From: Patescibacteria group bacterium
GTDB lineage: Bacteria; Patescibacteriota; Microgenomatia; Levybacterales; UBA12049
Direction of reading: 5' to 3'
Assembly: GCA_038061125.1 (NCBI GenBank)
Contig: JBBTZX010000049.1
Coordinates: 1-32,198 of the forward strand
DNA: 32,198 bases
Positions within the stretch are counted from its first letter, which is position 1. Each line of letters begins with the position of its first letter. A model generated the notes under the pieces. It searched no databases, was not told where the DNA came from, and was given only the letters and a program-made list of their open reading frames with translations. Positions 3,391 through 26,627 of the stretch are shown here, piece after piece. A program made the position numbers and the translations under genes.

Positions 3391-4449
3391 ATGAAGATTC
3401 TTTTTTTGTCCAGACTTTTTTATCCCCATATCGGCGGAGTTGAAAAGCATGTAATGGAAATAAGCAGATTGTTAGTTGAGAAAGGTCATCAGGTAAGCGT
3501 GGTAACGGAAGAATTACCAGCTGAAGATATACCAGTATATCTTCAATCAAAGAGGTTACCGGAGCATGAGGTTTTTAATTCAATTGAAGTTTATAGAATT
3601 CCGGTTGGCAAAAATGAATGGTTTAAAAAGTTTATTATTTGGAAATGGTTTTGGACAAACAGAAAATTGATAGAGGATGCAGATATAGTACATTGTCATG
3701 ATGTATTTTTTTGGTACCTCCCTTTTAGATTTTTATTTCCTTTCAAAAAAGTATTTACAACATTTCATGGATACGAAGGTTATCCTCTAAAACCAAAAGA
3801 TATTTTAGTGCACAAATTGTCAGAAAAGCTATCCAATGGCAATATTTGTATTGGTGATTTTATTCAAAGATGGTATGGAACAAAGCCAACATATGTTTCG
3901 TATGGAGGCGTTAACGTAAGCGAAAAACGAAAAGCGAAAAGCGAAAAGCAGGTAGAACGATCAGCGGTTTTTGTAGGAAGACTTGATGAGCAGACGGGTT
4001 TTTTAACCTATCTTGAGGCGGTTAAAAAAATAAGAGAAAAATTTCCGGATTTTAAATTCACCGTATTTGGAGATGGAAAGCTTAGGAATAAAATTAATAA
4101 AGATATCGATTTCAGAGGTTTAGTAGAAAATCCGGAGAAAGAATTGCCGAAATTCAATTTTATTTTTGCCTCAAGATACTTATCGATTTTGGAAGCAATG
4201 GCTGCAAAAAGATCGGTATTGGCAGTATACGATAATCCCTTAAAAAAAGATTATTTAAAGATGTCACCGTTTGCGGATTATATTTCGATTAGCGATTCAT
4301 CGGAGGGTTTAGCTAAAAATGTAGAATATTTTTTAAAAAATCCCAAAGAGAAAGAAAAATTAACTAATAAAGCTTTTGAGTGGGTAAAAAAGCAATCCTG
4401 GGGAAATCTATCTAATGTATGCATAAATCTTTGGCAACGAAGTAAATAG
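3391..4449 (+). CDS. GT4-family (GT-B fold) glycosyltransferase
   Basis: The N-terminus MKILFLSRLFYPHIGGVEKHVMEISRLLVEKGHQV is the classic GT4 beta1/Gly-rich loop. The C-terminal half has VFVGRLDEQTG and SILEAMAAKRSVLA (EX7E-like region). The start codon lies 1 nt after the tRNA-Val discriminator base. Confidence 0.85.
   Translation: MKILFLSRLFYPHIGGVEKHVMEISRLLVEKGHQVSVVTEELPAEDIPVYLQSKRLPEHEVFNSIEVYRIPVGKNEWFKKFIIWKWFWTNRKLIEDADIVHCHDVFFWYLPFRFLFPFKKVFTTFHGYEGYPLKPKDILVHKLSEKLSNGNICIGDFIQRWYGTKPTYVSYGGVNVSEKRKAKSEKQVERSAVFVGRLDEQTGFLTYLEAVKKIREKFPDFKFTVFGDGKLRNKINKDIDFRGLVENPEKELPKFNFIFASRYLSILEAMAAKRSVLAVYDNPLKKDYLKMSPFADYISISDSSEGLAKNVEYFLKNPKEKEKLTNKAFEWVKKQSWGNLSNVCINLWQRSK
3920..3947 (+). 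repeat. Heptanucleotide tandem repeat (gcgaaaa/acgaaaa/gcgaaaa/gcgaaaa) inside the GT4 CDS
   Basis: Four consecutive 7-nt units plus a partial gc, read directly. They encode SEKRKAKSEK in the predicted inter-domain linker. Confidence 0.9.
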
Positions 4450-4455
4450 AGGGAG

Positions 4456-5478
4456 TTATATTTCATACAAAGCTTCAAAAAACAGTCTTTGAATCGGGTG
4501 AGGATGCTGGTAAATAGTGCGCCAATTTTTAGGAATGGGGTATTCGTCTTCCCTTATGCAGGAATTATCCTTTGCATACGATCTTATCCATTGTTTGTTA
4601 TAAAAATAGCCATCAGTTAAGCGGTTAATCTCATTAATATAATTACTTATTTGTCTTCGTGTCATTTCATGCAGTGTGCTTATCGAAATCATAAGATTAA
4701 AATACTTATCGGGTAAATATTTTATTTGATGAGCCATAATAAATCTAATTCGCGCGGCTTCAAATTCTTCCTTTATTTCTCCAAACGATGAAAAAGGCCT
4801 AAAGAGAAAAATCTTTTCCTCAGGAAACACTTTTGATAAATACTCCTGCGATATAAAAAGAGCAGGCGGAATGTCGATAATGCAATAGGAAATTTTTGGC
4901 AGCGCCTGCAGAAATACATATGCCAATCTTCCATATCCCGCACCTATTTCTGCCACTTCCATATGTTTTTGTGAATTAATTTTATCGGTTATACTATAAA
5001 ACTCATGTACGGAGTTGCATAAGTCTTGAGAGACAAAGTTCTTTTTATAGCTAACGATGAAAGGGTTTCCGACAAGAGGCTCTTTGATACGATCTAAAAG
5101 TTTCAATTTGTCTTTGCGATAAACATAGTCGCTTAGATAAGCGACATATATTTTGTATATGAAAGCAGTAATGTGATTAAAAGACGTAACGTATGAGCGG
5201 ATTTGCGACCGAGGATTTAAAAATCGGCTCCTAAATATCGGAGCAAAATTTCCTCTTTTCAACTCTGAAATTATTGGCGATAGCTGATGTCTAATAATCA
5301 TCAGGATTTTCCAATTAAAATAGTGTACCGTAACCGATCTTTTAAAATTGTCAAAACCAGAATGCAGCAATTGTGCGTTATGTATTTTATTTAATTTTTT
5401 CCAAAATTCCGAAGGATAATAGACTGAAGGAGCTTTCTTGATTTCGGTAATCATTTCTTTTAGCTTCGCGTTATTCAT
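4456..5478 (-). CDS. Class I SAM-dependent methyltransferase, putative sugar O-methyltransferase type
   Basis: 340 aa. The N-terminal PSEFWKKLNKIHNAQLLHSGFDNFKRSVTVHYFNW and the central VAEIGAGYGRLAYVFL (SAM motif I) resemble the putative sugar O-methyltransferase family found in O-antigen-type clusters. The ATG overlaps the upstream stop (ATGA at 5475-5478). Confidence 0.65.
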   Translation of the reverse strand: MNNAKLKEMITEIKKAPSVYYPSEFWKKLNKIHNAQLLHSGFDNFKRSVTVHYFNWKILMIIRHQLSPIISELKRGNFAPIFRSRFLNPRSQIRSYVTSFNHITAFIYKIYVAYLSDYVYRKDKLKLLDRIKEPLVGNPFIVSYKKNFVSQDLCNSVHEFYSITDKINSQKHMEVAEIGAGYGRLAYVFLQALPKISYCIIDIPPALFISQEYLSKVFPEEKIFLFRPFSSFGEIKEEFEAARIRFIMAHQIKYLPDKYFNLMISISTLHEMTRRQISNYINEINRLTDGYFYNKQWIRSYAKDNSCIREDEYPIPKNWRTIYQHPHPIQRLFFEALYEI

Positions 5479-7232
5479 ATAAGATTTCGAAAAATATTTT
5501 TTATCCTTTTTGATGAAATTATTAAAAATATCAAAATAAGAGCAAGGAAAGAAAAAAAGCTTAAGAACATCGAGAAAGCCCTGACTTTCGTATTCATAAA
5601 GCTTACATCCACTTTATATGATCCTTTATTTAAATTGAAGGTTATAATTCCAGGATAAGCGGTATCAATGAAGCTAAATGGATAAGGATTGCCATTCACC
5701 CTTACAATCCAGTTTGGGAAATATAAGGTGTTCTCCTTTATAAGCGCGTTTTTTGATGTAACATTTATTAAATATGAGTGTTTTACTGAATTTCTTGATA
5801 TTTCGGATATATCTGCTTTTCCTTGTACAATCTCAATATGGGGCACTGTTCTCTGATTGGATTTGAAATTATTGGAATTGACCCATATCGTAGTTCCCTG
5901 CCCAACTTTAGTGATATTGCTGGGTAATTCGTATAAGATAGAAGAATCTGTTAAAAGAGGTAAAGTTTTCCTATTTCCCCAGTTTGGAATAGTTGTTAAT
6001 ATTGCAATTAAACACAAGCTGACAAAAAGCCATTTCTGGGTAATATTTTTTATAACTACTCCGGCGATTATGGAGACAAAAAATGAAATTAGCAAAAGCA
6101 GTCTATAGGAATATTGGAAACCTTTTAGTAATGAAACATTCATCCACATTGTTCTCGAAAACGACTGAGTCATAATTAGAAATAGGAAAAGAGAGGTAAC
6201 AGATATTAAATATACGACTTTTCCTTTCAGAGAAATCTTGCCTTTAAAAAATAAAATAATCGAAAATATGATGATAAACCATTGTATATATCCTACTATG
6301 AAGGATAGCTCCCCGTTGGGTCCTTGGAATAAAAACCCCCACCTCCATGGAGAATAAAAAAGCTGACTTAACGATATGAACGATACAGCTCCCGTTGTTA
6401 ATAAATTTGTATATTTAGCTTCAAAAATAACTGGCATCCAGTAGAAAGAAGATAGCAATAGTCCCATGATAAGGGATAGGATATAGAAAAATATGTATTT
6501 AATTTTTTTTCTGTTTTTTGTTATCCAAAGATAAAGACAGTAAGCAATAATAAACGGAAACGATATGAGCGATATAGCTTGATGGGAAAGCACAAGGAGA
6601 GTTACGCTTAAGGAAGATAAGAAAAACCACAAAAAGGTAATTTTATTAGACATCTTCCTTATTGTTAAGAAACAAAAAGGAAGAATTGCAAAGGCAATAA
6701 TCTCCCCGATAGCTGCCCTAAAATGTAAATCAACAAGATGATACGGAGAAAAAAGATAAATGATAGCGGCGATAAATGCGGAACATCTATTCTTCAGTTC
6801 TTCTTTTATGAATAAATACATCATAATACCAGAGGCGATAAATGAAAGAGCAAGGATGAGTTTTAGGCTATTAATAAAATTAAATCCTATAAAATGAAAT
6901 AAAGATGCTAAGTAATAAGGAAGAGGATAGGCGAAAAGAAAGAGCGGATATCCATATCCGTAAATAATTTGACTGCTCCAGCGCGGAATAATATTTCCGT
7001 CTTTTAGGGATTCGTAGAATGACATGGCGAATCCGGTATGTATAGTTAAATCTCCGCTTTCATACGTGCCTTTTCTTAGGATACTTACAAGAGGTAACAG
7101 GGAGATTAAGACTAAGAGAAATAATAGGTTAATATTGCGTTTTGGGTAAACATATTTATAAATTATTATTCCAAGCAGCAATAAGACAGAAAATATTAGG
7201 TTGACCATTGTCATTCTGTAAGGTTCAATCAT
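5475..7232 (-). CDS. Polytopic membrane protein, GT-C-like (PTPS-related/COG5617- or YfhO-like); paralog A
   Basis: 585 aa with more than 10 hydrophobic segments. An acidic first-loop motif YESGDLTIHTGFAMSF is followed by GYPLFLFAYPLPYY. A C-terminal beta-rich soluble domain (IKENTLYFPNW...) precedes a terminal TM anchor. Tandem paralog of 7237-8976. Confidence 0.6.
   Translation of the reverse strand: MIEPYRMTMVNLIFSVLLLLGIIIYKYVYPKRNINLLFLLVLISLLPLVSILRKGTYESGDLTIHTGFAMSFYESLKDGNIIPRWSSQIIYGYGYPLFLFAYPLPYYLASLFHFIGFNFINSLKLILALSFIASGIMMYLFIKEELKNRCSAFIAAIIYLFSPYHLVDLHFRAAIGEIIAFAILPFCFLTIRKMSNKITFLWFFLSSLSVTLLVLSHQAISLISFPFIIAYCLYLWITKNRKKIKYIFFYILSLIMGLLLSSFYWMPVIFEAKYTNLLTTGAVSFISLSQLFYSPWRWGFLFQGPNGELSFIVGYIQWFIIIFSIILFFKGKISLKGKVVYLISVTSLFLFLIMTQSFSRTMWMNVSLLKGFQYSYRLLLLISFFVSIIAGVVIKNITQKWLFVSLCLIAILTTIPNWGNRKTLPLLTDSSILYELPSNITKVGQGTTIWVNSNNFKSNQRTVPHIEIVQGKADISEISRNSVKHSYLINVTSKNALIKENTLYFPNWIVRVNGNPYPFSFIDTAYPGIITFNLNKGSYKVDVSFMNTKVRAFSMFLSFFSFLALILIFLIISSKRIKNIFRNLI
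7072..7109 (-). repeat. 38-nt exact repeat shared with 8816-8853 (core of an approximately 106-nt high-identity tract, 7045-7150)
   Basis: tttcttaggatacttacaagaggtaacagggagattaa is identical at both sites. A second exact 22-mer (7129-7150 = 8873-8894) has the same 1744-nt offset. Confidence 0.95.
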
Positions 7233-7236
7233 AAGA

Positions 7237-8976
7237 TTAAAATTTTTTCAGGATTGGTTTTAGCAATACGCCTTTTAACAACACTATAAATATAAATAAT
7301 AATGCTGTGATGCTGCTCAATTGAGATATCGTTCTGAGTCTAGTATTTTCAAATCTCAACTCCGCTTTGTATGTTCCAGGATTCAATTTAAAAGTGATGA
7401 CCCCCATATATTTGGGATCCTTAAAGTAAATAGGATGTGGGGAATTATTTATCAATAACGTCCAGTTTGGAAAATATAAAGTGTTTTCTTTAATTATCAC
7501 ATCTGTTTTTGCATCAATCAGGTATTCATGATCCGTTGGGCTTCTATAGATTTGCTTGATTTCGGCTTCACCTTTTATTGTTTCTATTGGTAATTTAGGT
7601 ATGTCTTTTAAAACAATATGATTTAGATTAGGATAAATATTTTTATAGATCGGGTCTGATGGGTCATAATATTCCGTATATAATGTTTCATAGCCTGCCC
7701 GGTTTACTTTTTGTTCAGGTACAATTTTTCTGTTTCCCCAGTTAAGAATTGTTGAAAAAATGGCAAAAACACAGATAACGATCACTATTTTTTTATTTAT
7801 TTTTTTTGCCACGATTGCTGCTATCGCAGATAGTATGAAAGCAATGGGAACTAGCAATCTCCATGCGAATTGTAAATTATTAAGATATGAAAAAGTTTCC
7901 CATATTTTTTTAGATACAGGCAATATCATAAAAAAAAGAATGAGAAAGGAAAATTGGAAAAACAATAAGAGAATCTTTTCTTTTTTGTCATGAATCCTAT
8001 TGATTAAGAAGAATGAAATAATGAATGCCAGTAATTGCGCATAGCCTAAAAGATAATGCGTTTCTCCGTGATGGCCTTGAAATAATAAGCCCAACATAGT
8101 AGGAGAATAAAGCAGATCTTTTAATGATAAAAATCCACCCGTAGGTAGAGTGAAGGAATATAGGGTATATTGCACTTCAAACTTTGCTGGTATCCAATAA
8201 AATGAAGATAATAACAATCCAAGTATTATGGAACTCAACCAACAAAGAAGGTCAATTTTTCTCTTATTCTTCTTTTTTATCCATATAATAAAAATATAAA
8301 TGGCAGCCAGATGAAGCACGATTAGCGAGGTCGATAAATGCGACAATATTAACAAGGCAAAGCTTATGGCTCCCCAAATTAAAAATTTATATTTTCTCGT
8401 TTCAATAATCTTTTTGGAAAATAGAAAAATTAATGGTATAAAAGCAAAAGATAAAGTTTCCCCAACAGATGCTCTAAAATGCATATCTACTAAATGAAAT
8501 GGGGCAAAAAGATATAAAATTGATGCAGTAAATCCGGAAACTTTTCCGAATTCTTCTTTTGCCCAGCAGTACATTGCTATACCGGAGGCTATAAACGAAG
8601 TTATTAATACCAATTTCATACTAGCAAGAAATGGAAAACCTAGAAAATGAAAAAGCGAAGCAAGATAAAATGGTAATGGATACAGAAATATAAAAACAGG
8701 AGTTCCGTAACCAACATTTGTCCATGCGGGAAATATGTTACCGGCTATTAGGTTGTCATAAAAAGACATAGCATAGTGCGTATGTAGAGTTAAATCCCCG
8801 CTTTCATAGCTGCCCTTTCTTAGGATACTTACAAGAGGTAACAGGGAGATTAAAATTAAAAGAAATAAAAGATTAATATTGCGTTTTGGGTAAATATACC
8901 TATAGATCAATACTCCTAAGAATAATGAAATTGAAGAAACGAGATTAACAGCAACCATCCTATACGGATCTATCAT
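7237..8976 (-). CDS. Polytopic membrane protein, GT-C-like (PTPS-related/YfhO-like); paralog B
   Basis: 579 aa with the same architecture as 5475-7232. Motifs: YESGDLTLHTHYAMSF, GTPVFIFLYPLPFY, C-terminal IKENTLYFPNW...GVITFKLNPGTYK and a terminal TM. The ATG overlaps the GT2 stop (ATGA at 8973-8976). Confidence 0.6.
   Translation of the reverse strand: MIDPYRMVAVNLVSSISLFLGVLIYRYIYPKRNINLLFLLILISLLPLVSILRKGSYESGDLTLHTHYAMSFYDNLIAGNIFPAWTNVGYGTPVFIFLYPLPFYLASLFHFLGFPFLASMKLVLITSFIASGIAMYCWAKEEFGKVSGFTASILYLFAPFHLVDMHFRASVGETLSFAFIPLIFLFSKKIIETRKYKFLIWGAISFALLILSHLSTSLIVLHLAAIYIFIIWIKKKNKRKIDLLCWLSSIILGLLLSSFYWIPAKFEVQYTLYSFTLPTGGFLSLKDLLYSPTMLGLLFQGHHGETHYLLGYAQLLAFIISFFLINRIHDKKEKILLLFFQFSFLILFFMILPVSKKIWETFSYLNNLQFAWRLLVPIAFILSAIAAIVAKKINKKIVIVICVFAIFSTILNWGNRKIVPEQKVNRAGYETLYTEYYDPSDPIYKNIYPNLNHIVLKDIPKLPIETIKGEAEIKQIYRSPTDHEYLIDAKTDVIIKENTLYFPNWTLLINNSPHPIYFKDPKYMGVITFKLNPGTYKAELRFENTRLRTISQLSSITALLFIFIVLLKGVLLKPILKKF
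8816..8853 (-). repeat. 38-nt exact repeat, partner of 7072-7109
   Basis: Identical 38-mer read directly. It lies in the codons for the conserved N-terminal LISLLPLVSILRKG segment of paralog B. Confidence 0.95.
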
Positions 8977-9872: not shown

Positions 9873-9882
9873 TCTATGTACT

Positions 9883-9891: not shown

Positions 9892-9948
9892 CATTTCTCC
9901 GTTAAAAACAAAACTAAATTGAAGAATGAGGTTAAATATGGAATTTTA

Positions 9949-13880: not shown

Positions 13881-13916
13881 TGATTGTGCCAAAATGTTAA
13901 AAACTTTAAAGAAATT

Positions 13917-20114: not shown

Positions 20115-22339
20115 AAATAAAACTATCGGTCATTTACGTTTATTACAATACGCCGGAGGAATTACAATTATCCATTAAATCTTTGGAGCGAGCTTGTGTC
20201 AAAATACCCTACGAAGTAATAATCGTAAACAATAATTCTCAAAAAGGCATTCCTAAAAAGATTTATGATAAGTCTAATATAACGATAATAAATAACGATA
20301 CTAATTACGGATACGGTAAAGGTTTAAATCAAGGCGCCGGTATCGCAAAAGGGGAATATCTGCTTTTGGTAAATCCGGATGTGGAGTTTACGGAAAATTC
20401 AATAAAACATCTTTTAGGTAAGATAGAAAGCGATTCAAGAATCGGAGCGGTTGCCCCTCAATTAATAGATGAAAAAGGGAATATTTTGCAAAGCATTAGT
20501 GGTATGCCTTATTTGCCCCAGAGTTTATTTGTATTTTCATTTCTAGATAAAATATGGGGTAAGAATCCGTTTTTGGTCAAATATCATAATTTAAATCTTG
20601 ATAGAAGCAAAGAACACGAAGTAGATGTAGCTGGTGGGGCATGTATGATGGTTAGAAGATCTATATTCGATAAAGTTGGTGGATTCGATGAAAGATTTTT
20701 TATGTATTTCGAAGAGGCTGACTTTTGTTCCCGAATAAAACAATTAGGGTGCTCGATAATTTACTATCCGAAGGCAAAAGCGATACACCTTGTCGGACGA
20801 AGCAGTCAGGATAAGGAGTGGATAGAAAAAACATTTGAACAAAGCAGATTCAAATTTTTTAAAAAATATCACGGTTTAATTCCTGCCTTATTGGGGGAAT
20901 TCGCTTTGAGGTTTTTTAAACCGTTAAATATGCTGTTATTAACAATATTAGCTCTTTCAGCTTTTCTGAATTTATATAAATTAAATGAGCAAATGATTTT
21001 TATCGGTGATCAGGGATGGTTTTACCTATCGGCAAGAGACTTGCTTTTAACAGGTGAAATTCCCTTGGTTGGGATAACCTCAAGCCATACGTGGCTTCAC
21101 CAGGGACCATTATGGACATACATTCTTGCTGTAATTTTTTGGTTATTTAAATTTAATCCCATTGCACCCGCATATTTTACAGGATTACTTAGTACAGTAA
21201 CTGTTTTTCTAGTTTATAAAGTCGGAAGAATTCTTTTTTCCAAGAATGTAGGTTTGATAGGAGCAGTGCTGTATGCTACATCACCGTTGATTATTATTAA
21301 TTCTCAAATGCCATACCATACTAGTCCTATTCCCTTATTAACTTTGGGTTTAATTTACTCAGTTTTTAAATGGATAAAAGGAAATGTATACTTTTTTCCC
21401 ATAGCTATTCTTTTTATGGCATTATTATATAATTTTGAGCTCGCAACGCAAATATTCTGGTTTCCAATTGGGTTTATTTTTATCGTAGGCTTTCTAGGAA
21501 AGAAACAATGGGCGAAGGCCGTATTGAGAGCAGGGATTCTATTTACATCTTTAGCTTTTTTTATCCTGCCGATGGTCCCAATTTTTATTTACGATATTAA
21601 TCATAAATTTGCGCAAACTTTAAAATTTTTCGTATGGTTTCCGTACAGAATAGCGAGCCAATTATTGAATATAAAAAGCGCACTTCTGTTAACTAAAACG
21701 CAAGAGTCTTTTGTTTCTATGATTAGTTTTTTTTCGGCTAATTATCAACAGCTTGTTTTTGCGTCAAATAATTTAGCGTCATTACTTATTTTATCTTTAA
21801 GTATTATATGCATAACGTTTTATTTATTAAAGACTAGGAATATAAACAATCTTTTTTCCCCAATTAGTTTACTGATAGTATTTATAATCATCCCTTTAGT
21901 GGGGTTTTTTCTCAACATGATAGCTTCGGGTGCCTATCTTCCTTTATTTTTTCCGAGTGTAATTATTATTACGGCGTGGGTGTTTGACAGAATAATGCAT
22001 AAGAAATATTTGTTTTTTCCTATTTTGGCTTTAGTTTTTTATATTGCAGCGTTAAACACTCTGTTTGTTTTAGATAAGACTAAAAGTAAACCTGCTTACG
22101 GTATTTATTTTTCGGAGAGGCTAAATGCCGTAAAAACGATATTGAAAGAAACCGATGGGGAAAGTTATAGAATTAGAGGAAGTGGTCCCGGAAGTCAGTT
22201 TGAAAGCTTTACGATGAATTATGAATATATTGTCTGGTGGTTGGGTAAGCCGCCATCGGAAAAATCTGCAAAAAATCTATTCACAATCAGCGAGGATAAA
22301 AATGGAGTTGTTATAAATAAGGAGATATTTAATAAATAA
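20111..22339 (+). CDS. Bifunctional fusion: N-terminal GT2 (GT-A) domain plus C-terminal GT-C (ArnT/PMT-like) polytopic domain
   Basis: About aa 1-260: SVIYVYYNT...EVIIVNNNS...NYGYGKGLNQGAGIAKGEYLLLVNPDVEF and FFMYFEEADFCSR. From about aa 270, TM1 is followed by FIGDQGWFYLSARDLLLTGEIPLVG and about 12 TM segments, then a soluble C-terminus. This is one uninterrupted 742-aa ORF; its ATG overlaps the GT4 stop (ATGA). Confidence 0.8.
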   Translation: MKIKLSVIYVYYNTPEELQLSIKSLERACVKIPYEVIIVNNNSQKGIPKKIYDKSNITIINNDTNYGYGKGLNQGAGIAKGEYLLLVNPDVEFTENSIKHLLGKIESDSRIGAVAPQLIDEKGNILQSISGMPYLPQSLFVFSFLDKIWGKNPFLVKYHNLNLDRSKEHEVDVAGGACMMVRRSIFDKVGGFDERFFMYFEEADFCSRIKQLGCSIIYYPKAKAIHLVGRSSQDKEWIEKTFEQSRFKFFKKYHGLIPALLGEFALRFFKPLNMLLLTILALSAFLNLYKLNEQMIFIGDQGWFYLSARDLLLTGEIPLVGITSSHTWLHQGPLWTYILAVIFWLFKFNPIAPAYFTGLLSTVTVFLVYKVGRILFSKNVGLIGAVLYATSPLIIINSQMPYHTSPIPLLTLGLIYSVFKWIKGNVYFFPIAILFMALLYNFELATQIFWFPIGFIFIVGFLGKKQWAKAVLRAGILFTSLAFFILPMVPIFIYDINHKFAQTLKFFVWFPYRIASQLLNIKSALLLTKTQESFVSMISFFSANYQQLVFASNNLASLLILSLSIICITFYLLKTRNINNLFSPISLLIVFIIIPLVGFFLNMIASGAYLPLFFPSVIIITAWVFDRIMHKKYLFFPILALVFYIAALNTLFVLDKTKSKPAYGIYFSERLNAVKTILKETDGESYRIRGSGPGSQFESFTMNYEYIVWWLGKPPSEKSAKNLFTISEDKNGVVINKEIFNK

Positions 22340-22340
22340 G

Positions 22341-23093
22341 ATGATAAGCGCAGTCGTTCTTACTAGGAATGAGGAGAATAGTATCATTGATTGCTTAGAA
22401 TCAATGGGCTGGTGCGATGAGATAATTGTTGTTGATGATTTTTCTCAAGATAGAACAATTGAGATTATAGGTGGGCTAAGGAATAAAAAAATTTCTGTTT
22501 TTAAACGTGCTTTAAATAAAGATTATTCAAAACAGCGAAATTTTGGCTTGTCGAAAACAAGCTATGAATGGATATTATTTGTTGATGCAGACGAAAGAGT
22601 TTCACCGTTTCTTAGGGATGAAATATTAAAAGCAACAAGTACGAGAAGTAAATATGACGGTTATCTGATAAGAAGAAGGGATATTTTGTGGGGTAAAGAA
22701 TTAAGATACGGTGAATTAGGAGATGTTAAGCTTTTAAGGTTGGCAAAGAAAGGTAAGGGGGAGTGGAGCGGTCGCGTACATGAAGAGTGGGAAATAAGAG
22801 GAGCAGTTGGGCAACTTAATTCTTCCTTGATTCATTATCCTCACCAAACTATTACGGAGTTTCTAAGAGAGATAAATTTTTATACGGATATAAGGGCAAA
22901 AGAATTATTCGATAATGGGACAAGGGTTTCATGGTTGTCAATACTGTTATACCCAAAAGCTAAATTCATCCTAAATTATTTTTTAAGATTAGGTTTTTTA
23001 GACGGCATACAGGGATTAATAGTGGTCATTTTTATGAGTTTTCACTCTTTTTTAGTTAGGAGTAAGCTGTGGAAACTGCGGCAAGGAAGATAA
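22341..23093 (+). CDS. GT2-family glycosyltransferase (WaaE/KdtX-like small GT2)
   Basis: ISAVVLTRNEENSIIDCLES...EIIVVDDFSQDRT...KQRNFGLSKTSYEWILFVDADERVS, and the C-terminal LGFLDGIQGL motif typical of this subgroup. Starts 1 nt after the preceding stop. Confidence 0.8.
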   Translation: MISAVVLTRNEENSIIDCLESMGWCDEIIVVDDFSQDRTIEIIGGLRNKKISVFKRALNKDYSKQRNFGLSKTSYEWILFVDADERVSPFLRDEILKATSTRSKYDGYLIRRRDILWGKELRYGELGDVKLLRLAKKGKGEWSGRVHEEWEIRGAVGQLNSSLIHYPHQTITEFLREINFYTDIRAKELFDNGTRVSWLSILLYPKAKFILNYFLRLGFLDGIQGLIVVIFMSFHSFLVRSKLWKLRQGR

Positions 23094-23104
23094 CTATTTA
23101 TATT

Positions 23105-24682
23105 ATGTTTACGATTGCCGTTTTGATAGGAATCTACTCATATTTTATTTTCGTTTTGGGCTTACTGGGACTTTTGTATAGAGAAAACGTTATTATTTTT
23201 TCCTTACTGTATATTGCAGTTATAGTTTTAGCCTACAGGAAAAAAATAATCAATGTTCTTAAATTAATTCGTATCGAAAAAACTCCCAACATAAATTTTA
23301 GTTTTGTATTAATTACGTTAATTGTTTCCCTCGCATTGGTAAATTTAATTGGAGTTCTTGGTCCGGAGCTTGGTTTCGATGCGTTATGGTATCACTTAAC
23401 GCTTCCTAAAATTTATCTAAATACACACATGATTACACATATTCCGGGCGGGTTATTATATTACTCCGATATGCCAAAGCTTACGGAGATGCTCTATGTC
23501 GGAGCATTATCTTTTGGGAGCGAAACATTAGCAAAATTAGTTCATTTTGCGTTTGGAATACTTTCCGCTATTGCGTTGTATAAACTCTCAAGAAATCTTT
23601 TTAGTAAAACATATTCTTTTCTAGCGGTTCTAATTTTTTATAGTAATTTGGTGGTAGCGTGGCAGTCAACAACTGCCTATATTGATCTTGCTAGAACCTT
23701 TTTTGAAATAATGGCGCTTTGGGGATTTGTTAATTGGTGGAAAAAAGGAGAGAGAAAGTGGCTCATAGAGTCTGCTGTAATGCTGGGACTTTCTATTTCA
23801 GTTAAACTTCTTGCCGTAGAATCATTGCCTATATTCTTAATTTTAATAGGGCTATGCACGTATACATATAAAAAATCCATAAAATATTTTTTGATAAATA
23901 TATCTAGCTATTGGTTTATGGCTCTTTTGATTCCACTGCCATGGTTTATTTTTTCATTTATCCATACGGGAAATCCTATTTACCCATTTTTTTCTGCTGT
24001 TTATAATGTAGGATTAAACCTTCGATTTATAAACCCGTTTATCCATAGATCCGATTCCATTTCTGTTGTTTATATTCTAATTCCAGCTTTTCTTCCGTTT
24101 GTTTTTAGAAAATTAAAGCGTGAAATTAAGATTATTTTCCTATATTCATTTTTAGGATTTATTGTTTGGTATCTGACCCCAAAAACTGACGGCGGAAGAT
24201 TTATGCTTCCCTATCTGCCGGCATTTTCTTTGCTTTTGGTTTCAATGCTGGTTTTTCTAAAGAACAATTTATTTAAAAAAATCATTATTTGTTTTATTGT
24301 TCTAACCTCAATTGTTTCCATCATTTACAGAGGAGCTGCTGATTATAAATATTTACCTGTAATTTTAAGTAAAGAATCAAAGAGCGATTTTTTAGCCAAA
24401 CATCTTAATTTTTCGTACGGAGATTTTTACGATACTGACGGATATTTTGCAAAAAATATAACACGAAACAATAAAGTTCTCCTATATGGATTTCACAATC
24501 TATATTACGTAGATTTCCCATTTATAGATTCGTCATGGGTTAAAAAGGGAGATACTTTCGATTATATCGCAGTTCAAAATTCAATAATTCCCAAAAGATT
24601 TTCGTATTGGAATCTTGTATACTACAACAAGAAAACTAACGTAAAACTTTATTCTTTAGGAGGGCAAAAATGGGTTTATTAA
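23105..24682 (+). CDS. GT-C-like polytopic membrane glycosyltransferase
   Basis: Many TM segments, the first-loop motif GPELGFDALWYHLTLPKIYL, and a soluble C-terminal domain. The track start is a GTG at 23069, inside the upstream gene; the ATG at 23105 (MFTIAVLIG) is preferred. Confidence 0.6.
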   Translation: MFTIAVLIGIYSYFIFVLGLLGLLYRENVIIFSLLYIAVIVLAYRKKIINVLKLIRIEKTPNINFSFVLITLIVSLALVNLIGVLGPELGFDALWYHLTLPKIYLNTHMITHIPGGLLYYSDMPKLTEMLYVGALSFGSETLAKLVHFAFGILSAIALYKLSRNLFSKTYSFLAVLIFYSNLVVAWQSTTAYIDLARTFFEIMALWGFVNWWKKGERKWLIESAVMLGLSISVKLLAVESLPIFLILIGLCTYTYKKSIKYFLINISSYWFMALLIPLPWFIFSFIHTGNPIYPFFSAVYNVGLNLRFINPFIHRSDSISVVYILIPAFLPFVFRKLKREIKIIFLYSFLGFIVWYLTPKTDGGRFMLPYLPAFSLLLVSMLVFLKNNLFKKIIICFIVLTSIVSIIYRGAADYKYLPVILSKESKSDFLAKHLNFSYGDFYDTDGYFAKNITRNNKVLLYGFHNLYYVDFPFIDSSWVKKGDTFDYIAVQNSIIPKRFSYWNLVYYNKKTNVKLYSLGGQKWVY

Positions 24683-25902
24683 AAACATTTTTCATTATAT
24701 TTATTCTTTTTTTGTTTCCAATGGGGGAGATCGCCAGATATCAGTTTGGTAACGGTATATCTATAACTGCTATTGACGCAGGAGCAATACTGCTTATTCT
24801 TATTTGGTTAATCTCAAACATTATACGAGGAAAAAGAAAACTAATTTTTAAATCTTCTTTGACCAATCCAATTCTTCTGTTTGTTGCAATATGCATATTG
24901 TCTTTGATTGTAAATCTATCGAATCTCAAAAGCTCAGAACTTTTCGTATCCAGCCTTTATCTTATAAGGTGGATTATGTACGCACTTATTTACTTCGTGG
25001 TTTCGGGATTTGACAAAAAATTTAAGGCAAAAATACCTATTCTTATGGTTATTTCGGGCTTACTCATTTTGGGGGGCGGTTATATTCAATACTTTTTTTA
25101 TCCCAGCCTTCGCAATTTATATTATCTTGGGTGGGATGAACATTTGTATAGGATGTTTTCCGTATTCTTGGATCCAAATTTTGCCGGTGCATTTTTTGTC
25201 CTTTTATTATTCCTTATGTTTGGCTTAATTGTTTATTGTATGAAAAGTAGAAAATTAATTTGTACCATAGCGTTATTGTTGCTGGCTGGCTTTACGGCTA
25301 TAGGAATCTTTTTAACTTATTCAAGAAGCGCATTCGTTATGTTTTTTGCGGGAATATTTATATTCCTCGTTTTAACAAACAAGAAAAAAGTGATGATTCC
25401 CGTTCTTGCTATCTGTCTAATTGTATTTGCCATTTCTTCAAAAAATTTCAATATAGAAAATACAAATCTCCTAAGAACTGCTTCTGGCGTGGCAAGATTA
25501 GATTCGGCAAATAAGGCAGTTACTGTAATTAGAGATCATCCGTTGTTTGGCGTTGGATTTAATGCTTATAGATACGCACAGATACGATACGGATTCGTTG
25601 GAGATAAGGAATTAATGGTAAGTCACGCTGCTGCAGGAACGGATAATAGCTTTTTATTCGTATTGGCAACCACAGGATTGGTTGGTTTTACAGCCTACGC
25701 TTATCTTTGGTATAGAATATCAAGCAATCTATATGCACTTTTTAAACAAAATATAGGTTTAGACAAAATAATACCTTTAGTTTTATTTTCTTCTTACGTA
25801 GGTATTTCTCTAGCAAGCTTTTTTATAAATGCTTTATTTTACCCTTTCATTATAGTTTGGATATGGATATTGTTGGGGTACTGCGAAAAGACTAGGGGTT
25901 AA
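24670..25902 (+). CDS. Wzy_C-domain protein (O-antigen ligase/polymerase or O-oligosaccharyltransferase-like)
   Basis: Polytopic protein. It has LTYSRSAFVMFFAGIFIF and a large loop HPLFGVGFNAYRYAQ...HAAAGTDNSFLFVLATTGLVG, the pattern shared by WaaL/Wzy/PglL-type proteins. Overlaps the upstream gene by 13 nt. Confidence 0.7.
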   Translation: MGLLKTFFIIFILFLFPMGEIARYQFGNGISITAIDAGAILLILIWLISNIIRGKRKLIFKSSLTNPILLFVAICILSLIVNLSNLKSSELFVSSLYLIRWIMYALIYFVVSGFDKKFKAKIPILMVISGLLILGGGYIQYFFYPSLRNLYYLGWDEHLYRMFSVFLDPNFAGAFFVLLLFLMFGLIVYCMKSRKLICTIALLLLAGFTAIGIFLTYSRSAFVMFFAGIFIFLVLTNKKKVMIPVLAICLIVFAISSKNFNIENTNLLRTASGVARLDSANKAVTVIRDHPLFGVGFNAYRYAQIRYGFVGDKELMVSHAAAGTDNSFLFVLATTGLVGFTAYAYLWYRISSNLYALFKQNIGLDKIIPLVLFSSYVGISLASFFINALFYPFIIVWIWILLGYCEKTRG

Positions 25903-26627
25903 GGATTGTAGATGACTTTTAAGTCTATCTCTTTTTTGTTCCCTGCTTGATCGGTTGCCACAATTTTAATAGGATTTTCTCCGTTCTTAAGGGGTAAGCT
26001 GTAAGAGAAATTGTTACTTTCATCAACTATTACCCAGAGATCATTAACTGTAACTTTTACATCACTGTCGGTCTTTCCTTTTACCTGCGTAGCATTTTGG
26101 TCTTTGGAAAATACTTGTCCGTCGGATGGGGAGTCTACAGTAAGAGAAGGAATAGCGCTTTTGAAAACAACGGTTTGCGTTTCGGAAAAACCACTAGTTT
26201 TGTCATCAAGAACTGCGTTTGTTTTGATTGCATTGTTTCCCGGAATTAAAGACTCGGCAAAAGTAAAACTTCCGTCTGATTTTGCCTGTATTTTATCTAT
26301 TAAAGAGTTATTTATATATAAATTTATAATTTGATTAGGCGAAGAATTTCCGGAAATTATTATATTTGCGCTATTTGTTGCGGATAATAGTGGATTTATA
26401 ATCGGAGGTGAAATAAATTGAATTGAATTGTTTTGCGTAGGTTCCTGAGACGATTTGGATCCAGATAAGAATAATGTTAGGTTAACCATAAGCGGAAGTC
26501 CGAATTTAATGACAATAAACATTACGATTGCTATTCCAGCCAAACTTAAAAACAAGTTTCTTCGAATTCTTGTTTCTTTTAGGTTTGACAATCTAGATCT
26601 GTTTCTGTTCATTCTTGCCATAATCAC
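25899..26627 (-). CDS. N-terminally membrane-anchored surface protein with two Ig-like (bacterial Ig fold) modules
   Basis: A basic N-terminus and TM (LFLSLAGIAIVMFIVIKFGLPLMV) are followed by two modules of the form G.....I.LY/VTVN.....(S)DG/NNF.....L..G.N.I...A.D.AGN. The track start is a GTG at 26627; ATGs at 26621 or 26612 are equally possible. Confidence 0.6.
   Translation of the reverse strand: MIMARMNRNRSRLSNLKETRIRRNLFLSLAGIAIVMFIVIKFGLPLMVNLTLFLSGSKSSQEPTQNNSIQFISPPIINPLLSATNSANIIISGNSSPNQIINLYINNSLIDKIQAKSDGSFTFAESLIPGNNAIKTNAVLDDKTSGFSETQTVVFKSAIPSLTVDSPSDGQVFSKDQNATQVKGKTDSDVKVTVNDLWVIVDESNNFSYSLPLKNGENPIKIVATDQAGNKKEIDLKVIYNP

What the first reader, a model, noticed from the sequence alone, without database searches (positions are those of the whole stretch)
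3391..26627. tRNA-bracketed ~23 kb glycan locus built from iterated GT2 -> GT-C cassettes, lacking canonical O-antigen/capsule parts
Nineteen CDS sit between core genes (ileS on one side, pyrE/atp on the other). They include six polytopic GT-C-like proteins, each with a different acidic first-loop motif: YESGDLT (twice), YRDEGY, QMDEW, GDQGW and GFDALW. The rest are a Wzy_C-like protein, one MOP flippase, three free GT2 genes, two GT4 genes, four methyltransferases and an Ig-like surface protein. A GT2 unit lies immediately upstream of a GT-C unit four times: 8973-9872 -> 7237-8976 (ATGA overlap), 11273-12238 -> 12228-13880 (11-nt overlap), fused within 20111-22339, and 22341-23093 -> 23105-24682. 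This is the logic of known two-component extracytoplasmic glycosylation pairs such as GtrB/GtrC, ArnC/ArnT, CsbB/YfhO and Ppm1/Pmt. In those pairs a GT2 makes polyprenyl-phosphate-monosaccharide and a GT-C transfers it outside the membrane. Here the pairing is iterated and combined with heavy methylation. I see no priming phosphoglycosyltransferase (WecA/WbaP/PglC type), no chain-length regulator, no ABC exporter and no NDP-sugar biosynthesis gene. The locus does not match a described Wzx/Wzy, ABC or synthase pathway, so it is a candidate undescribed multi-donor surface decoration system.
Basis: partly seen in the sequence, partly recalled or inferred. Interest (0 to 1): 0.75.

Follow-up and report, generated by a model that had tools for sequence, protein, structure and literature searches.

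The report
Variable surface-glycan locus of a Levybacterium
This is a cell-surface sugar-polymer gene cluster of an ultra-small groundwater bacterium: a conserved flippase/polymerase-type core sits at a fixed chromosomal site and carries an unusually large, swappable set of membrane (GT-C) glycosyltransferases and methyltransferases, so it is a rich variant of known pathways and not a new kind of system.

Summary
Between tRNA-Val and tRNA-Thr lie 18 CDS (not 19). They are six GT-C-like polytopic proteins, a Wzy_C protein, a MOP flippase, three free GT2s plus one GT2 fused to a GT-C, two GT4s, four methyltransferases and an Ig-like protein. All claimed motifs and gene overlaps are present.

None of the four GT2s is a GtrB/ArnC/DPM1-type polyprenyl-phosphate sugar synthase. 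They score 17-38 bits against a family HMM, while a held-out relative scores 351 bits. True GtrB-type genes do occur beside the YfhO-like GT-C in eight related loci.

Comparison with about 90 related Levybacteria/Microgenomates loci shows a conserved core at the same site: GT4, GT2b, Wzx, GT4, GT2, GT2c, Wzy_C, Ig-like protein. One complete genome shows that core with no GT-C between GT4a and pyrE. GT-C and methyltransferase genes come and go around it, and the GT2s persist without GT-C neighbours.

Two "missing parts" claims weaken. The locus encodes two TylC3-type NDP-sugar 3-C-methyltransferases, and relatives carry NDP-sugar genes. No priming transferase is found in the window or in any relative's locus.

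Best reading: a Wzx/Wzy-type lipid-linked glycan pathway with variable extracytoplasmic GT-C decoration and methylation. The GT-C donor synthase and the primer are probably encoded elsewhere.

The parts
3318..3390 (+). tRNA-Val(cac), the conserved left boundary of the locus
   Evidence: ARAGORN. The same tRNA sits at the same position in L008, L021, L079 and L072.
3391..4449 (+). GT4a, a cytoplasmic GT-B glycosyltransferase and core gene
   Evidence: Pfam Glyco_transf_4 and Glycos_transf_1. It is kept in minimal loci L015 and L021.
4456..5478 (-). NanM-type putative sugar O-methyltransferase (accessory)
   Evidence: NCBIfam TIGR04371, 132 bits against a cut-off of 44. Absent from L015.
5475..7232 (-). 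PTPS1, a YfhO/PTPS_related-type GT-C with the YESGDLT motif at residue 57 (accessory)
   Evidence: Pfam PF10131 E = 6.7e-13 and YfhO E = 5.5e-4. 46% identical to PTPS2. Hydropathy.
7237..8976 (-). PTPS2, a YfhO/PTPS_related-type GT-C paralogue with the YESGDLT motif
   Evidence: Pfam PF10131 E = 8.8e-18. ATGA overlap with GT2a.
8973..9872 (-). GT2a, a GT2 with a rhamnosyltransferase-like C-terminal half and one C-terminal TM helix. It is not GtrB-type (accessory).
   Evidence: Pfam PF00535. NCBIfam TIGR01556 matches the C-terminal part. PDB best hits are chondroitin synthase and RmlT. PI-GT HMM 37.5 bits, N-terminal only. Relatives L027 and L047 have a true GtrB-type gene at this position.
9964..11223 (+). 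CMT1, an NDP-hexose 3-C-methyltransferase of the TylC3/TcaB9 type (accessory)
   Evidence: PDB 4rv9 E = 1.5e-93 over the full length. Pfam Methyltransf_13/14. Absent from L007 and L013.
11273..12238 (+). GT2b, a membrane-anchored GT2 (GT-A domain plus three C-terminal helices). It is the most widespread core gene.
   Evidence: More than 2,600 homologues. AF2 pLDDT 88. Foldseek best hits are hyaluronan synthase (TM-score 0.62-0.68) and PcManGT. PI-GT HMM 30.1 bits. Directly followed by Wzx in 23 of 54 relatives.
12228..13880 (+). GTCx, a divergent GT-C missed by Pfam and NCBIfam; most likely PMT_2/ArnT-like. D39-E40 (YRDEGY) is invariant and lies after TM1 (accessory).
   Evidence: No Pfam or NCBIfam hit. 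Alignment A1 invariant columns. AF2 model. Foldseek top 12 are all GT-C. Profile search finds 12,431 representatives at E <= 1e-3. The exact 550-aa product is on record.
13884..14750 (+). Class I SAM methyltransferase with a hydrophobic C-terminus (accessory)
   Evidence: Pfam Methyltransf_11 E = 1.2e-24. In L008, L012 and L014 it is replaced by a 133-aa 4-TM ORF and a 663-aa polytopic ORF.
14783..16435 (+). PMT2a, a PMT_2-type GT-C with the QMDEW motif at residue 53 (accessory but common)
   Evidence: Pfam PF13231 E = 3e-11. It follows GT2b directly in 17 related loci.
16471..17709 (+). Wzx-type MOP flippase (core)
   Evidence: Pfam Polysacc_synt_3 E = 5.4e-60. NCBIfam PRK10459, 152 bits.
17710..18939 (-). 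CMT2, a second TylC3-type C-methyltransferase (accessory, single-gene indel)
   Evidence: Pfam Methyltransf_14 E = 2.2e-44 and Methyltransf_13. Absent from L008, L012 and L014; present in L013.
19002..20114 (+). GT4b, a cytoplasmic GT-B glycosyltransferase (core, but a highly divergent allele)
   Evidence: Pfam Glycos_transf_1 E = 2.7e-24. Only 41% identical to the L008/L012 copy, while the flanks are 90-94%.
20111..22339 (+). Fusion of a GT2 (residues ~1-260, a paralogue of GT2a) to a PMT_2-type GT-C. The GDQGW motif lies just after the first TM helix.
   Evidence: Pfam PF00535 plus PF13231. 31% identical to GT2a over the GT-A domain. 811 homologues, the top 120 all fused. An unfused 285-aa orthologue exists in L015. 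PI-GT HMM 28.1 bits.
22341..23093 (+). GT2c, a short GT2 of the GmaR/SunS-like type (core)
   Evidence: Pfam PF00535. PDB GmaR E = 1.4e-14 and SunS. Kept in minimal loci L015 and L021 with no GT-C downstream. PI-GT HMM 17.3 bits.
23105..24682 (+). PMT2c, a PMT_2-type GT-C with the GFDALW motif (accessory)
   Evidence: Pfam PF13231 E = 2.8e-9. Absent from L015, L021 and L079.
24670..25902 (+). Wzy_C-family polymerase or ligase (core)
   Evidence: Pfam PF04932 E = 1.2e-17. Kept in all loci that reach this end.
25899..26627 (-). TM-anchored Ig-like surface protein (core, and the most conserved gene of the locus)
   Evidence: Pfam Glucodextran_B E = 3.1e-16. 94% identical to the L012 copy. Present in L015 and L021.
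26642..26715 (-). tRNA-Thr(cgt), the conserved right boundary
   Evidence: ARAGORN. The same tRNA lies next to pyrE in L012, L015, L021, L013, L079, L060, L038 and L072.

Best explanation
The window is a contig of a groundwater Levybacteria-type (Microgenomates, CPR/Patescibacteria) bacterium. The 23-kb stretch is that lineage's variable cell-surface glycan locus. It sits at a fixed site between ileS/tRNA-Val and tRNA-Thr/pyrE.

Shown: a conserved core recurs at this site across relatives. It consists of GT4a, the membrane-anchored GT2b, a Wzx-type flippase, GT4b, a GT2, GT2c, a Wzy_C-family polymerase/ligase and a TM-anchored Ig-like protein.

Inferred: the core builds an oligosaccharide on a polyprenyl carrier at the cytoplasmic face. 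Wzx flips it, and Wzy_C polymerises it or ligates it to its final acceptor.

Shown: around this core the window carries an accessory shell. The shell holds six GT-C transferases, one extra GT2, two NDP-sugar 3-C-methyltransferases, a NanM-type O-methyltransferase and a class I methyltransferase.

Inferred: the GT-Cs add side-branch sugars from polyprenyl-phosphate-sugar donors on the outer face. A GT-C tends to follow the GT2 whose product it decorates, or with which it forms a complex. The methyltransferases supply C-methylated deoxysugars and O-methyl caps. The polyprenyl-P-sugar synthase, the priming phosphoglycosyltransferase and the basic NDP-sugar enzymes are encoded elsewhere in the genome.
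For: Source and taxon. Identical proteins occur on Hainich groundwater contigs. The nearest named genomes are Levybacteria/Levyibacteriota.

Core versus shell.
- The Levybacteria MAG JAUSEW010000027.1 has the whole locus from ileS to atpG in the same order, at 41-94% protein identity.
- The complete genome CP066685.1 shows only the core from GT4a to pyrE.
- L021 has GT4a, GT2b, Wzx, GT2c, Wzy_C and Ig in 5.9 kb between the same two tRNAs.
- In 54 assessable relatives the gene after GT2b is Wzx in 23 and a GT-C of three different families in 23.
- The 20111-type GT2 is fused in 18 loci and unfused in 6.

Family calls. MOP flippase and Wzy_C. GT-C calls by Pfam and by structure. TylC3-type C-methyltransferase. 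NanM-type O-methyltransferase.

The GT2s are not PI-GTs. True GtrB-type genes exist in eight relatives' loci, several next to the YfhO-like GT-C, so the lineage does use the classical donor synthase.

Relatives' loci also carry NDP-sugar epimerases/dehydratases, nucleotidyltransferases and further PMT_2/GT87 genes.

The locus diverges faster than its flanks: GT4b 41% and GTCx 60%, against 90-94% for ileS, pyrE and atpD. That pattern is expected of a surface-antigen locus.

Several GT-A/GT-C pairs in one organism, and Wzx-type flippases serving such systems, are documented (PMC8035078).
Against: - No priming transferase was found in the window, nor in 95 related loci totalling 1.13 Mb. The Wzx/Wzy assignment therefore lacks its first enzyme. 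The E. coli probes used may also miss a divergent CPR enzyme.
- No GtrB-type synthase and no GtrA-type flippase are in the window, so the donors for six GT-Cs are unexplained. I could not search the rest of the genome.
- The strong positional association and the fusions between GT2 and GT-C are explained here only by inference.
- GT2b has a membrane-embedded architecture whose acceptor is unknown.
- CP066685.1 may encode GT-Cs further upstream or elsewhere; only 6 kb on each side of GT2b was seen.
- There is no biochemical evidence for any step.
Confidence: 0.55

Rival explanations
1. The locus is a set of iterated two-component cassettes. Each GT2 makes its own polyprenyl-phosphate monosaccharide, and the GT-C encoded immediately downstream, or fused to it, transfers that sugar outside the membrane. 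The GT2s would then be a new, non-GtrB class of polyprenyl-phosphate glycosyltransferase.
For: - All four GT2 units are directly followed by a GT-C, with overlapping or nearly abutting genes (P about 0.004 by chance).
- The fusion is widespread and stable.
- GTCx homologues are fused to two different GT2 types.
- GT-C genes in relatives rarely follow anything other than a GT2 or another GT-C.
- GT2a, GT2b and GT2c each have C-terminal hydrophobic helices.
- In L027 and L047 a true GtrB-type gene occupies the position of GT2a beside the YfhO-like GT-C, so the position itself is used for a donor synthase.
- The fusion's topology is coherent: GT-A inside, and the GT-C acidic loop after the first TM helix.
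Against: - None of the GT2s belongs to the GtrB/ArnC/DPM1 family: 17-38 bits against 351 bits for a held-out lineage member, with profile and structure results agreeing.
- The GT2s persist without a GT-C neighbour. GT2b is followed by Wzx in 23 of 54 loci, the unfused GT2 and GT2c occur in CP066685.1 and L021, and 6 loci have the unfused form. A synthase without a consumer would trap the lipid carrier.
- The GT-C following GT2b belongs to three different families.
- The closest relatives of GT2a and the 20111 GT2 are Leloir enzymes acting on polymers or lipid-linked glycans: chondroitin synthase, RmlT and rhamnosyltransferase-type enzymes.
Confidence: 0.2
2. A protein O-glycosylation system. 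The PMT_2 and YfhO-like GT-Cs glycosylate Ser/Thr-rich regions of surface proteins, for example the adjacent Ig-like protein or pilins. The Wzy_C protein acts as a PglL-like oligosaccharyltransferase that moves the flipped oligosaccharide onto protein.
For: - Three GT-Cs hit the protein-mannosyltransferase-related PMT_2 model.
- GTCx's best structural matches are the oligosaccharyltransferases AglB and STT3.
- The flippase also matches NCBIfam 'O-glycosylation flippase' at 94 bits.
- The Wzy_C family includes O-oligosaccharyltransferases (own knowledge).
- GT2c's best solved relatives, GmaR and SunS, glycosylate proteins or peptides.
- The TM-anchored Ig-like protein is always kept in the locus and has a Ser/Thr/Asn-rich linker.
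- Streptococcal Pgf systems pair a GtrB-type GT2 with GT-Cs for protein O-glycosylation (PMC11092751, seen).
Against: - PMT_2 also covers ArnT-like and polysaccharide-decorating GT-Cs.
- All matches fall far below any family-specific cut-off (the flippase scores 94 bits against a cut-off of 720).
- No acceptor evidence exists.
- This rival differs from the best explanation only in the final acceptor, so the two are not exclusive.
Confidence: 0.15
3. A pathway with no classical primer. The membrane-embedded GT2b, which overlaps the Wzx gene in relatives, starts the glycan directly on a lipid. That lipid could be a polyprenyl monophosphate, as in haloarchaeal AglJ-type priming, or a glycerolipid. 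No WecA/WbaP-type enzyme would then be needed.
For: - No primer is found in the window or in 95 related loci.
- GT2b is the most conserved and most widespread gene of the locus.
- It has three C-terminal TM helices and resembles membrane-integrated GT2s (hyaluronan synthase, PcManGT).
- It gives Pfam GT21 and weak NCBIfam HpnI hits, both families with lipid acceptors.
- It directly precedes and overlaps Wzx in minimal loci.
Against: - GT2b is not AglJ/DPM1/GtrB-like by HMM.
- Its best sequence-profile matches, TarS and TarP, act on teichoic acid.
- Primers are commonly encoded away from glycan loci, as with E. coli wecA.
- No genome-wide search was possible.
Confidence: 0.1

Closest known systems
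Wzx/Wzy-dependent repeat-unit polysaccharide loci at fixed chromosomal sites (E. coli O-antigen clusters, pneumococcal cps loci)
   Same: The locus has a MOP flippase, a Wzy_C-family membrane enzyme and several cytoplasmic GT4 and GT2 transferases. It sits at a fixed site between housekeeping genes. Its gene content is mosaic, and it diverges faster than its flanks. As in E. coli, the primer is not in the locus.
   Different: The host is a CPR bacterium, which as far as is known has no outer membrane or LPS (own knowledge). No Wzz/PCP protein and no primer are visible in any relative's locus. Up to six GT-C genes are embedded in the locus. The basic NDP-sugar genes are absent from this version.
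Multi-component transmembrane glycosylation systems of Gram-positive bacteria (CsbB/GtcA/YfhO, GtlA/GtlB, L. lactis CsdAB/CD/EF, S. pyogenes GacI/J/K/L), reviewed in PMC8035078
   Same: YfhO-type and PMT_2-type GT-Cs lie next to GT-A genes. Several GT-A/GT-C pairs can occur in one organism. A Wzx-type flippase can serve such a system. Relatives of this locus contain true GtrB-type plus YfhO-like pairs.
   Different: In the window, none of the GT2 neighbours is a GtrB/CsbB-type C55-P-sugar synthase, and no GtrA-type flippase is present. Six GT-Cs are concentrated in one locus, and one is covalently fused to a non-GtrB GT2.
GtrA/GtrB/GtrC serotype-conversion and ArnC/ArnT lipid A modification systems
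   Same: The general logic is shared: a GT-C acts at the outer face with an acidic first-loop motif. GTCx and the PMT_2 proteins resemble ArnT in fold or family.
   Different: Similarity of the window's GT2s to ArnC and GtrB is confined to the N-terminal ~60-140 residues, the shared nucleotide-binding region. The GT2s are core genes that exist without GT-C partners in relatives.
TylC3/TcaB9/KijD1 NDP-hexose 3-C-methyltransferases of deoxysugar antibiotic pathways
   Same: CMT1 gives a full-length match (E = 1.5e-93) with the same zinc-binding, methyltransferase and C-terminal domain architecture, and CMT2 shares that Pfam architecture.
   Different: Here they lie in a surface-glycan locus of a CPR bacterium, without the RmlA/RmlB-type genes that would make their 4-keto-6-deoxy substrate.

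Membership tests
GtrB/ArnC/CsbB/DPM1-type polyprenyl-phosphate glycosyltransferase (PI-GT) | Full-length sequence membership, covering the GT-A domain plus the juxtamembrane and TM region | tested here: not met
   An HMM of six CPR GtrB-like proteins plus E. coli GtrB and ArnC scores a held-out CPR member at 350.6 bits over HMM positions 4-307. GT2a scores 37.5, GT2b 30.1, the 20111 GT2 domain 28.1 and GT2c 17.3 bits. Three of the four align only over the N-terminal ~100 positions, and GT2b aligns weakly over positions 6-254. BLASTP to E. coli ArnC and GtrB aligns only the N-terminal region.
GtrB/ArnC/CsbB/DPM1-type polyprenyl-phosphate glycosyltransferase (PI-GT) | [quoted passage not shown] | tested here: inconclusive
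   The GT2b model has a GT-A domain plus three long C-terminal helices (234-256, 259-284, 289-319) and no C-terminal hairpin. Its Foldseek top 50 contains hyaluronan synthase, PcManGT, TarP/S and RmlT but not GtrB, ArnC or DPMS. GT2a and GT2c each have one hydrophobic C-terminal segment. No structures were predicted for GT2a, GT2c or the fusion.
GtrB/ArnC/CsbB/DPM1-type polyprenyl-phosphate glycosyltransferase (PI-GT) | Formation of polyprenyl-monophosphate sugar from an NDP-sugar | not testable with these tools
   Needs a membrane assay with labelled NDP-sugars and lipid extraction.
GT-C fold glycosyltransferases | A polytopic membrane protein recognised by a GT-C family model or by fold | tested here: met
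   PTPS_related/YfhO hits for 5475 and 7237. PMT_2 hits for 14783, 23105 and the 20111 C-terminal part. 12228 has no Pfam hit, but its AF2 model (pLDDT 79) matches AglB, STT3, ArnT and AftA in its top 12 at probability 1.00 and TM-score 0.4-0.5.
GT-C fold glycosyltransferases | A conserved acidic motif in the first extracytoplasmic loop | tested here: met
   All six motifs are present just after an N-terminal hydrophobic segment. D39 and E40 of GTCx are invariant in 23 homologues. That the loops face outward is inferred from hydropathy and the positive-inside rule. No topology predictor was run.
Wzx/Wzy-dependent polysaccharide pathway | A MOP-family repeat-unit flippase | tested here: met
   Polysacc_synt_3 E = 5.4e-60. 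NCBIfam MOP flippase PRK10459 at 152 bits, below its equivalog cut-off of 273.
Wzx/Wzy-dependent polysaccharide pathway | A Wzy polymerase or WaaL-type ligase | tested here: met
   Wzy_C PF04932 at 64.6 bits against a cut-off of 31.7. Whether it acts as a polymerase, a ligase or an oligosaccharyltransferase cannot be told.
Wzx/Wzy-dependent polysaccharide pathway | A priming phosphoglycosyltransferase (WecA/MraY-type or WbaP/PglC-type) | tested here: not met
   No PF00953 or PF02397 hit in any CDS. Six-frame tblastn with WecA and WcaJ gives a best E of 0.8 in the window and no hit at E < 0.05 in 95 related loci. Neither family is among the 25 listed in the Pfam census of 125 unassigned ORFs. 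The rest of the genome could not be searched.
Wzx/Wzy-dependent polysaccharide pathway | A chain-length regulator (PCP/Wzz) | tested here: not met
   No Wzz-family Pfam hit in any of the 18 CDS. Such a regulator is not universal outside Gram-negative O-antigen and capsule systems (own knowledge).
Multi-component transmembrane glycosylation system (PI-GT + flippase + GT-C) | All three components encoded together | tested here: not met
   In the window, GT-Cs and a Wzx-type flippase are present, but there is no PI-GT and no GtrA-like gene. The full set is met in relatives L027, L028 and L047, where a GtrB-type gene lies next to the YfhO-like GT-C.
NDP-hexose 3-C-methyltransferase (TylC3/TcaB9) | Full-length homology with the zinc-binding N-domain, the SAM methyltransferase domain and the C-terminal domain | tested here: met
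   CMT1 against 4rv9 gives E = 1.5e-93 over residues 11-418, and against TcaB9 E = 3.8e-66. Pfam Methyltransf_13, _23 and _14 hit both CMT1 and CMT2. CMT2 was not compared with the PDB.

The most novel reading that the evidence does not exclude
The GT2~GT-C fusion (20111-22339) is widespread and uncharacterised, and the unfused GT2/GT-C neighbours may work the same way. Together they could be a new class of self-contained extracytoplasmic glycosylation module. In that class a non-GtrB GT2 domain would load a sugar onto polyprenyl phosphate for its own GT-C domain. Alternatively, the membrane-embedded GT2b could prime the whole pathway on a lipid monophosphate, so that CPR bacteria build surface glycans without a classical phosphoglycosyltransferase. 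Either case would define a new lipid-sugar synthase family.
Probability: 0.15. Interest if true: 0.7.

Novelty: new variant of a known kind. Interest (0 to 1): 0.42.

Why it matters
CPR/Patescibacteria are ultra-small bacteria, many thought to live attached to host cells, and their surface chemistry is almost unknown (own knowledge). This analysis shows that Levybacteria-type genomes keep a surface-glycan locus at one fixed site. Its size between the same two tRNAs ranges from about 6 to 23 kb. It diverges much faster than its flanks and swaps GT-C and methyltransferase modules. That behaviour resembles O-antigen or capsule loci and suggests diversifying selection from phages, hosts or grazers. 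The analysis also flags hundreds of uncharacterised GT2~GT-C fusion proteins, and a large divergent GT-C branch that Pfam misses, as targets for biochemistry. It does not reveal a new pathway type. The individual families and the overall logic are known.

Tried and rejected
- The exact-sequence look-up of the 12198 TTG-start ORF failed. The ATG start at 12228 is the product on record.
- Literature searches for GT-C or surface-glycan loci in Patescibacteria found nothing specific. The PcManGT paper is not in the library.
- PTPS2 has no sequence match in the PDB even at E = 1.
- 'tRNA-bracketed island' was rejected. Both tRNAs are conserved at the same positions in relatives, whatever the locus size.
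- GTCx as an orphan family was rejected. Its profile finds 12,431 cluster representatives. A close homologue (P0015) carries a PMT_2 hit and a distant one (P0038) is named ArnT-like.
- GT2b as the specific partner of GTCx was rejected. GT2b has more than 2,600 homologues and GTCx has 39, and GT2b is followed by Wzx or by other GT-C families in most loci.
- The first Pfam census call exceeded the residue limit and was repeated with 125 ORFs. The other 76 of the 201 unassigned ORFs were not scanned.
As a result, the complete relative genome could not be searched for a primer or a GtrB-type gene.

Full report
**Layout and source**

The window has about 33% G+C. ileS lies at 428-3280(-), tRNA-Val(cac) at 3318-3390(+), tRNA-Thr(cgt) at 26642-26715(-), and pyrE/pyrF/pyrD and atpC/D/G at 26765-31929(-). 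Proteins identical to those of the window occur on contigs from Hainich groundwater metagenomes, in the 0.1 and 0.2 um filter fractions. The closest named relatives are Candidatus Levybacteria/Levyibacteriota and other Microgenomates/Patescibacteria. The window is therefore a contig of a CPR bacterium.

**Checking the observation**

Eighteen CDS fill 3391-26627. Pfam and NCBIfam give the following.

| Class | Genes (start coordinate) |
|---|---|
| GT4 | 3391, 19002 |
| YfhO/PTPS_related GT-C | 5475, 7237 (46% identical paralogues) |
| PMT_2 GT-C | 14783, 23105, and the C-terminal part of 20111 |
| Polytopic, no Pfam or NCBIfam hit | 12228 |
| GT2 | 8973 (GT2a), 11273 (GT2b), 22341 (GT2c), and the N-terminal domain of 20111 |
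| MOP flippase | 16471 |
| Wzy_C | 24670 |
| Ig-like protein with TM anchor | 25899 |
| Methyltransferases | 4456 (NanM-type O-MT, 132 bits against a cut-off of 44), 9964 and 17710 (Methyltransf_13/14), 13884 (class I) |

All six acidic motifs are present, each just after an N-terminal hydrophobic segment. The stated overlaps and gaps between paired genes are correct.

For the protein with no Pfam hit, I collected 39 homologues and predicted a structure (pLDDT 79, pTM 0.83). Its twelve best Foldseek matches in the PDB are all GT-C enzymes: AglB, STT3, ArnT and AftA. D39-E40 in YRDEGY is invariant. A full profile search shows it is a divergent branch of a very large family, with 12,431 cluster representatives at E <= 1e-3. 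A close homologue carries a PMT_2 hit and a distant one is named ArnT-like, which suggests the PMT_2/ArnT-like superfamily.

In a random gene order, all four GT2 units would be followed by a GT-C with a probability of about 0.004.

**Are the GT2s polyprenyl-phosphate sugar synthases?**

- By phmmer against the PDB, none of the four has GtrB, ArnC or DPMS as its best match. GT2a hits chondroitin synthase and RmlT. GT2b hits TarP and TarS. GT2c hits GmaR and SunS.
- BLASTP against E. coli ArnC and GtrB (fetched) aligns only about the first 60-140 residues.
- A profile of 33 GT2b homologues scores TarS at E = 2.5e-12, but GtrB and ArnC only at about 2e-3.
- The GT2b model (pLDDT 88) has a GT-A domain followed by three long C-terminal helices. 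It is most similar overall to Chlorella virus hyaluronan synthase (TM-score 0.62-0.68) and PcManGT. GtrB, ArnC and DPMS are not in the top 50.

The decisive control came from relatives. Eight related loci contain genes 32-39% identical to E. coli GtrB, nearly full length in seven; the eighth is cut by a contig end. An HMM built from six of them plus E. coli GtrB and ArnC scores the held-out seventh at 350.6 bits, full length. The window's GT2a, GT2b, 20111 GT2 domain and GT2c score 37.5, 30.1, 28.1 and 17.3 bits. Three of these align only to the N-terminal nucleotide-binding region, and GT2b aligns weakly over most of the model.

GT2a and the 20111 GT2 domain are paralogues (31% identity) with a rhamnosyltransferase-like C-terminal half.

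- The Levybacteria MAG contig JAUSEW010000027.1 carries the same locus, from ileS to atpG, in the same order.
- The complete 762-kb Levyibacteriota genome CP066685.1 has, next to tRNA-Thr and pyrE, only a methyltransferase, an unknown ORF, GT4a, GT2b, Wzx, GT4b, an unfused 285-aa orthologue of the 20111 GT2 domain, GT2c, Wzy_C and the Ig-like protein. None of the window's GT-C genes has a counterpart in the fetched 13-kb stretch.
- A metagenome scan with the GT2b alignment gave 80 more loci, which I mapped with tblastn.
- The order ileS, GT4a, GT2b, Wzx, GT4b, GT2, GT2c, Wzy_C, Ig, pyrE recurs, with GT-C and methyltransferase genes present or absent at fixed positions.
- The gene after GT2b is Wzx in 23 of 54 cases and a GT-C in 23. 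Those GT-Cs belong to three different families.
- The 20111-type GT2 is fused in 18 loci and stands alone, with room downstream, in 6.
- The YfhO-like gene usually lies divergent from GT2b (27 cases). It is preceded by a GtrB/ArnC-like gene in 3 cases and by GT2a in 2.
- Both tRNAs are conserved at the same positions. The distance between them ranges from 5.9 kb (L021) through 8.7 and 14.6 kb to 23.3 kb in the window.

So the GT2s are core genes that persist without GT-C neighbours. The GT-Cs are the variable shell, and the tRNA bracket is ancestral gene order.

**What still speaks for a functional link between GT2 and GT-C**

- Of 100 standalone GT-C genes in the 80 loci, 36 lie directly downstream of a non-GtrB GT2. 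Another 26 are divergent from a GT2, 10 follow another GT-C, 1 follows a GT4 and none follows Wzx. These loci were selected around GT2b, which biases the counts.
- The fusion is a stable architecture. There are 811 hits at E <= 1e-10, the best 120 are all 700-750 aa, and none has a name beyond generic glycosyltransferase labels.
- Two GTCx homologues are fused to GT2 domains of two different types.
- In L027 and L047 a true GtrB-type gene sits where GT2a sits in the window.

I read this as coupling within one pathway. The GT-C may decorate the residue installed by the neighbouring GT2, or the two may form a complex. That reading is inference, and the donor-coupled model is not excluded.

**The 'missing parts'**

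- Nucleotide-sugar genes are not absent. CMT1 is a full-length homologue of TylC3 (E = 1.5e-93), KijD1 and TcaB9, and CMT2 has the same domains. This predicts a C-methylated deoxysugar.
- Relatives' loci contain NDP-sugar epimerases/dehydratases (13 of 125 unassigned ORFs), nucleotidyltransferases (3), more PMT_2 (13) and GT87 (3) genes, and many methyltransferases.
- A priming transferase is absent from the window.
- I also found none in 95 related loci totalling 1.13 Mb, using tblastn with E. coli WecA and WcaJ at E < 0.05.
- Nor is a primer family among the 25 families listed in the Pfam census.
- In E. coli the primer wecA is likewise encoded far from the O-antigen cluster (plus textbook knowledge), so the absence is not in itself unusual. 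Its consistency across the lineage is still notable.
- No ABC exporter or Wzz-type protein is present, and no GtrA-like gene either. In the Levybacteria MAG, a 133-aa four-TM ORF and a 663-aa polytopic ORF replace the class I methyltransferase.

**Divergence pattern**

Against the Levybacteria MAG, flanking proteins are 90-94% identical (ileS 92, pyrE 92, atpD 94) and the Ig-like protein is 94%. By contrast GT4b is 41%, GTCx 60%, GT4a 71%, PMT2a 70-78% and Wzy_C 75%. GTCx also coincides with a G+C dip to about 26%. This is the pattern of a rapidly diversifying surface-antigen locus.

**Conclusion**

The most likely reading (confidence about 0.55) is a Wzx/Wzy-type lipid-linked glycan assembly core. 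It is overlaid by a variable set of extracytoplasmic GT-C decorating enzymes and sugar methyltransferases. The polyprenyl-P-sugar synthase, the primer and the basic NDP-sugar enzymes would be encoded elsewhere.

The rivals are:
- a protein O-glycosylation system, which differs only in the final acceptor (0.15);
- a pathway primed by GT2b on a lipid, with no classical primer (0.1).

Several GT-A/GT-C pairs in one organism, and Wzx-type flippases serving such systems, are already described for Gram-positive bacteria (PMC8035078). The defining architecture of PI-GTs is given in PMC4728340. The locus is therefore a new variant of a known kind. It is notable for its GT-C density, for the widespread uncharacterised GT2~GT-C fusion, and for being a variable glycan locus in a CPR lineage. 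It is not a new pathway type.

Noticed in passing
window 25899-26627 (-): The TM-anchored Ig-like protein is the most conserved gene of the locus (94% aa against L012). It is retained even in the minimal 6-kb versions (L015, L021). It has a Ser/Thr/Asn-rich linker and a weak NCBIfam hit to the CPR pilus protein PamR (E = 7.6e-5). It could be the glycan's acceptor or an assembly factor.
   Followed up: partly
window 12000-14000: G+C drops to 25.6-26.6%, against about 33% elsewhere, exactly over the GTCx gene. GTCx is also the least conserved GT-C relative to the Levybacteria MAG (60% aa).
   Followed up: partly
window 19002-20114 (+) versus L008 16975-18072 / L012 8898-9995: GT4b is only 41% identical between the two genomes, while the flanking genes are 80-94% identical. 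This looks like replacement by a divergent allele at the same position.
   Followed up: no
window 27394-28206 (-) versus L012 17278-18018: pyrF is only 56% identical to its counterpart, while the adjacent pyrE (92%) and pyrD (82%) are well conserved. This is an odd divergence for a housekeeping gene next to the locus.
   Followed up: no
L008 11663-14052 (also L012, L014): In the Levybacteria MAG, the class I methyltransferase (window 13884-14750) is replaced by a 133-aa ORF with four hydrophobic segments and a 663-aa polytopic ORF. The small ORF has the size of a GtrA-type flippase but no Pfam hit. This looks like a swapped candidate flippase plus GT-C module.
   Followed up: partly
L013 (CAZRWL010000002.1) and L014 (CAYPUE010000006.1): These MAG contigs are titled 'uncultured Gammaproteobacteria bacterium' but carry the Levybacteria-type locus at 43-87% protein identity. 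The taxon label is probably wrong.
   Followed up: no
L027 4867-5751, L028 3157-4062, L047 1491-2396, L062, L066, L067, L094: True GtrB-family genes (32-39% identical to E. coli GtrB, nearly full length) occur in some related loci, in three of them (L027, L028, L047) directly beside the YfhO-like GT-C. These are classical CsbB/YfhO-type pairs in CPR bacteria.
   Followed up: yes
window 13884-14750 (+): The class I methyltransferase has a hydrophobic C-terminal segment (residues ~258-283). This suggests membrane anchoring, which is unusual for a small-molecule methyltransferase and fits action on a lipid-linked or membrane-proximal glycan.
   Followed up: no
L010 10001-14490: In a distant lineage, a 33%-identical GTCx homologue stands alone immediately upstream of ileS, with no glycosyltransferase neighbours. 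The link between ileS and this GT-C may therefore be older than the rest of the locus.
   Followed up: no
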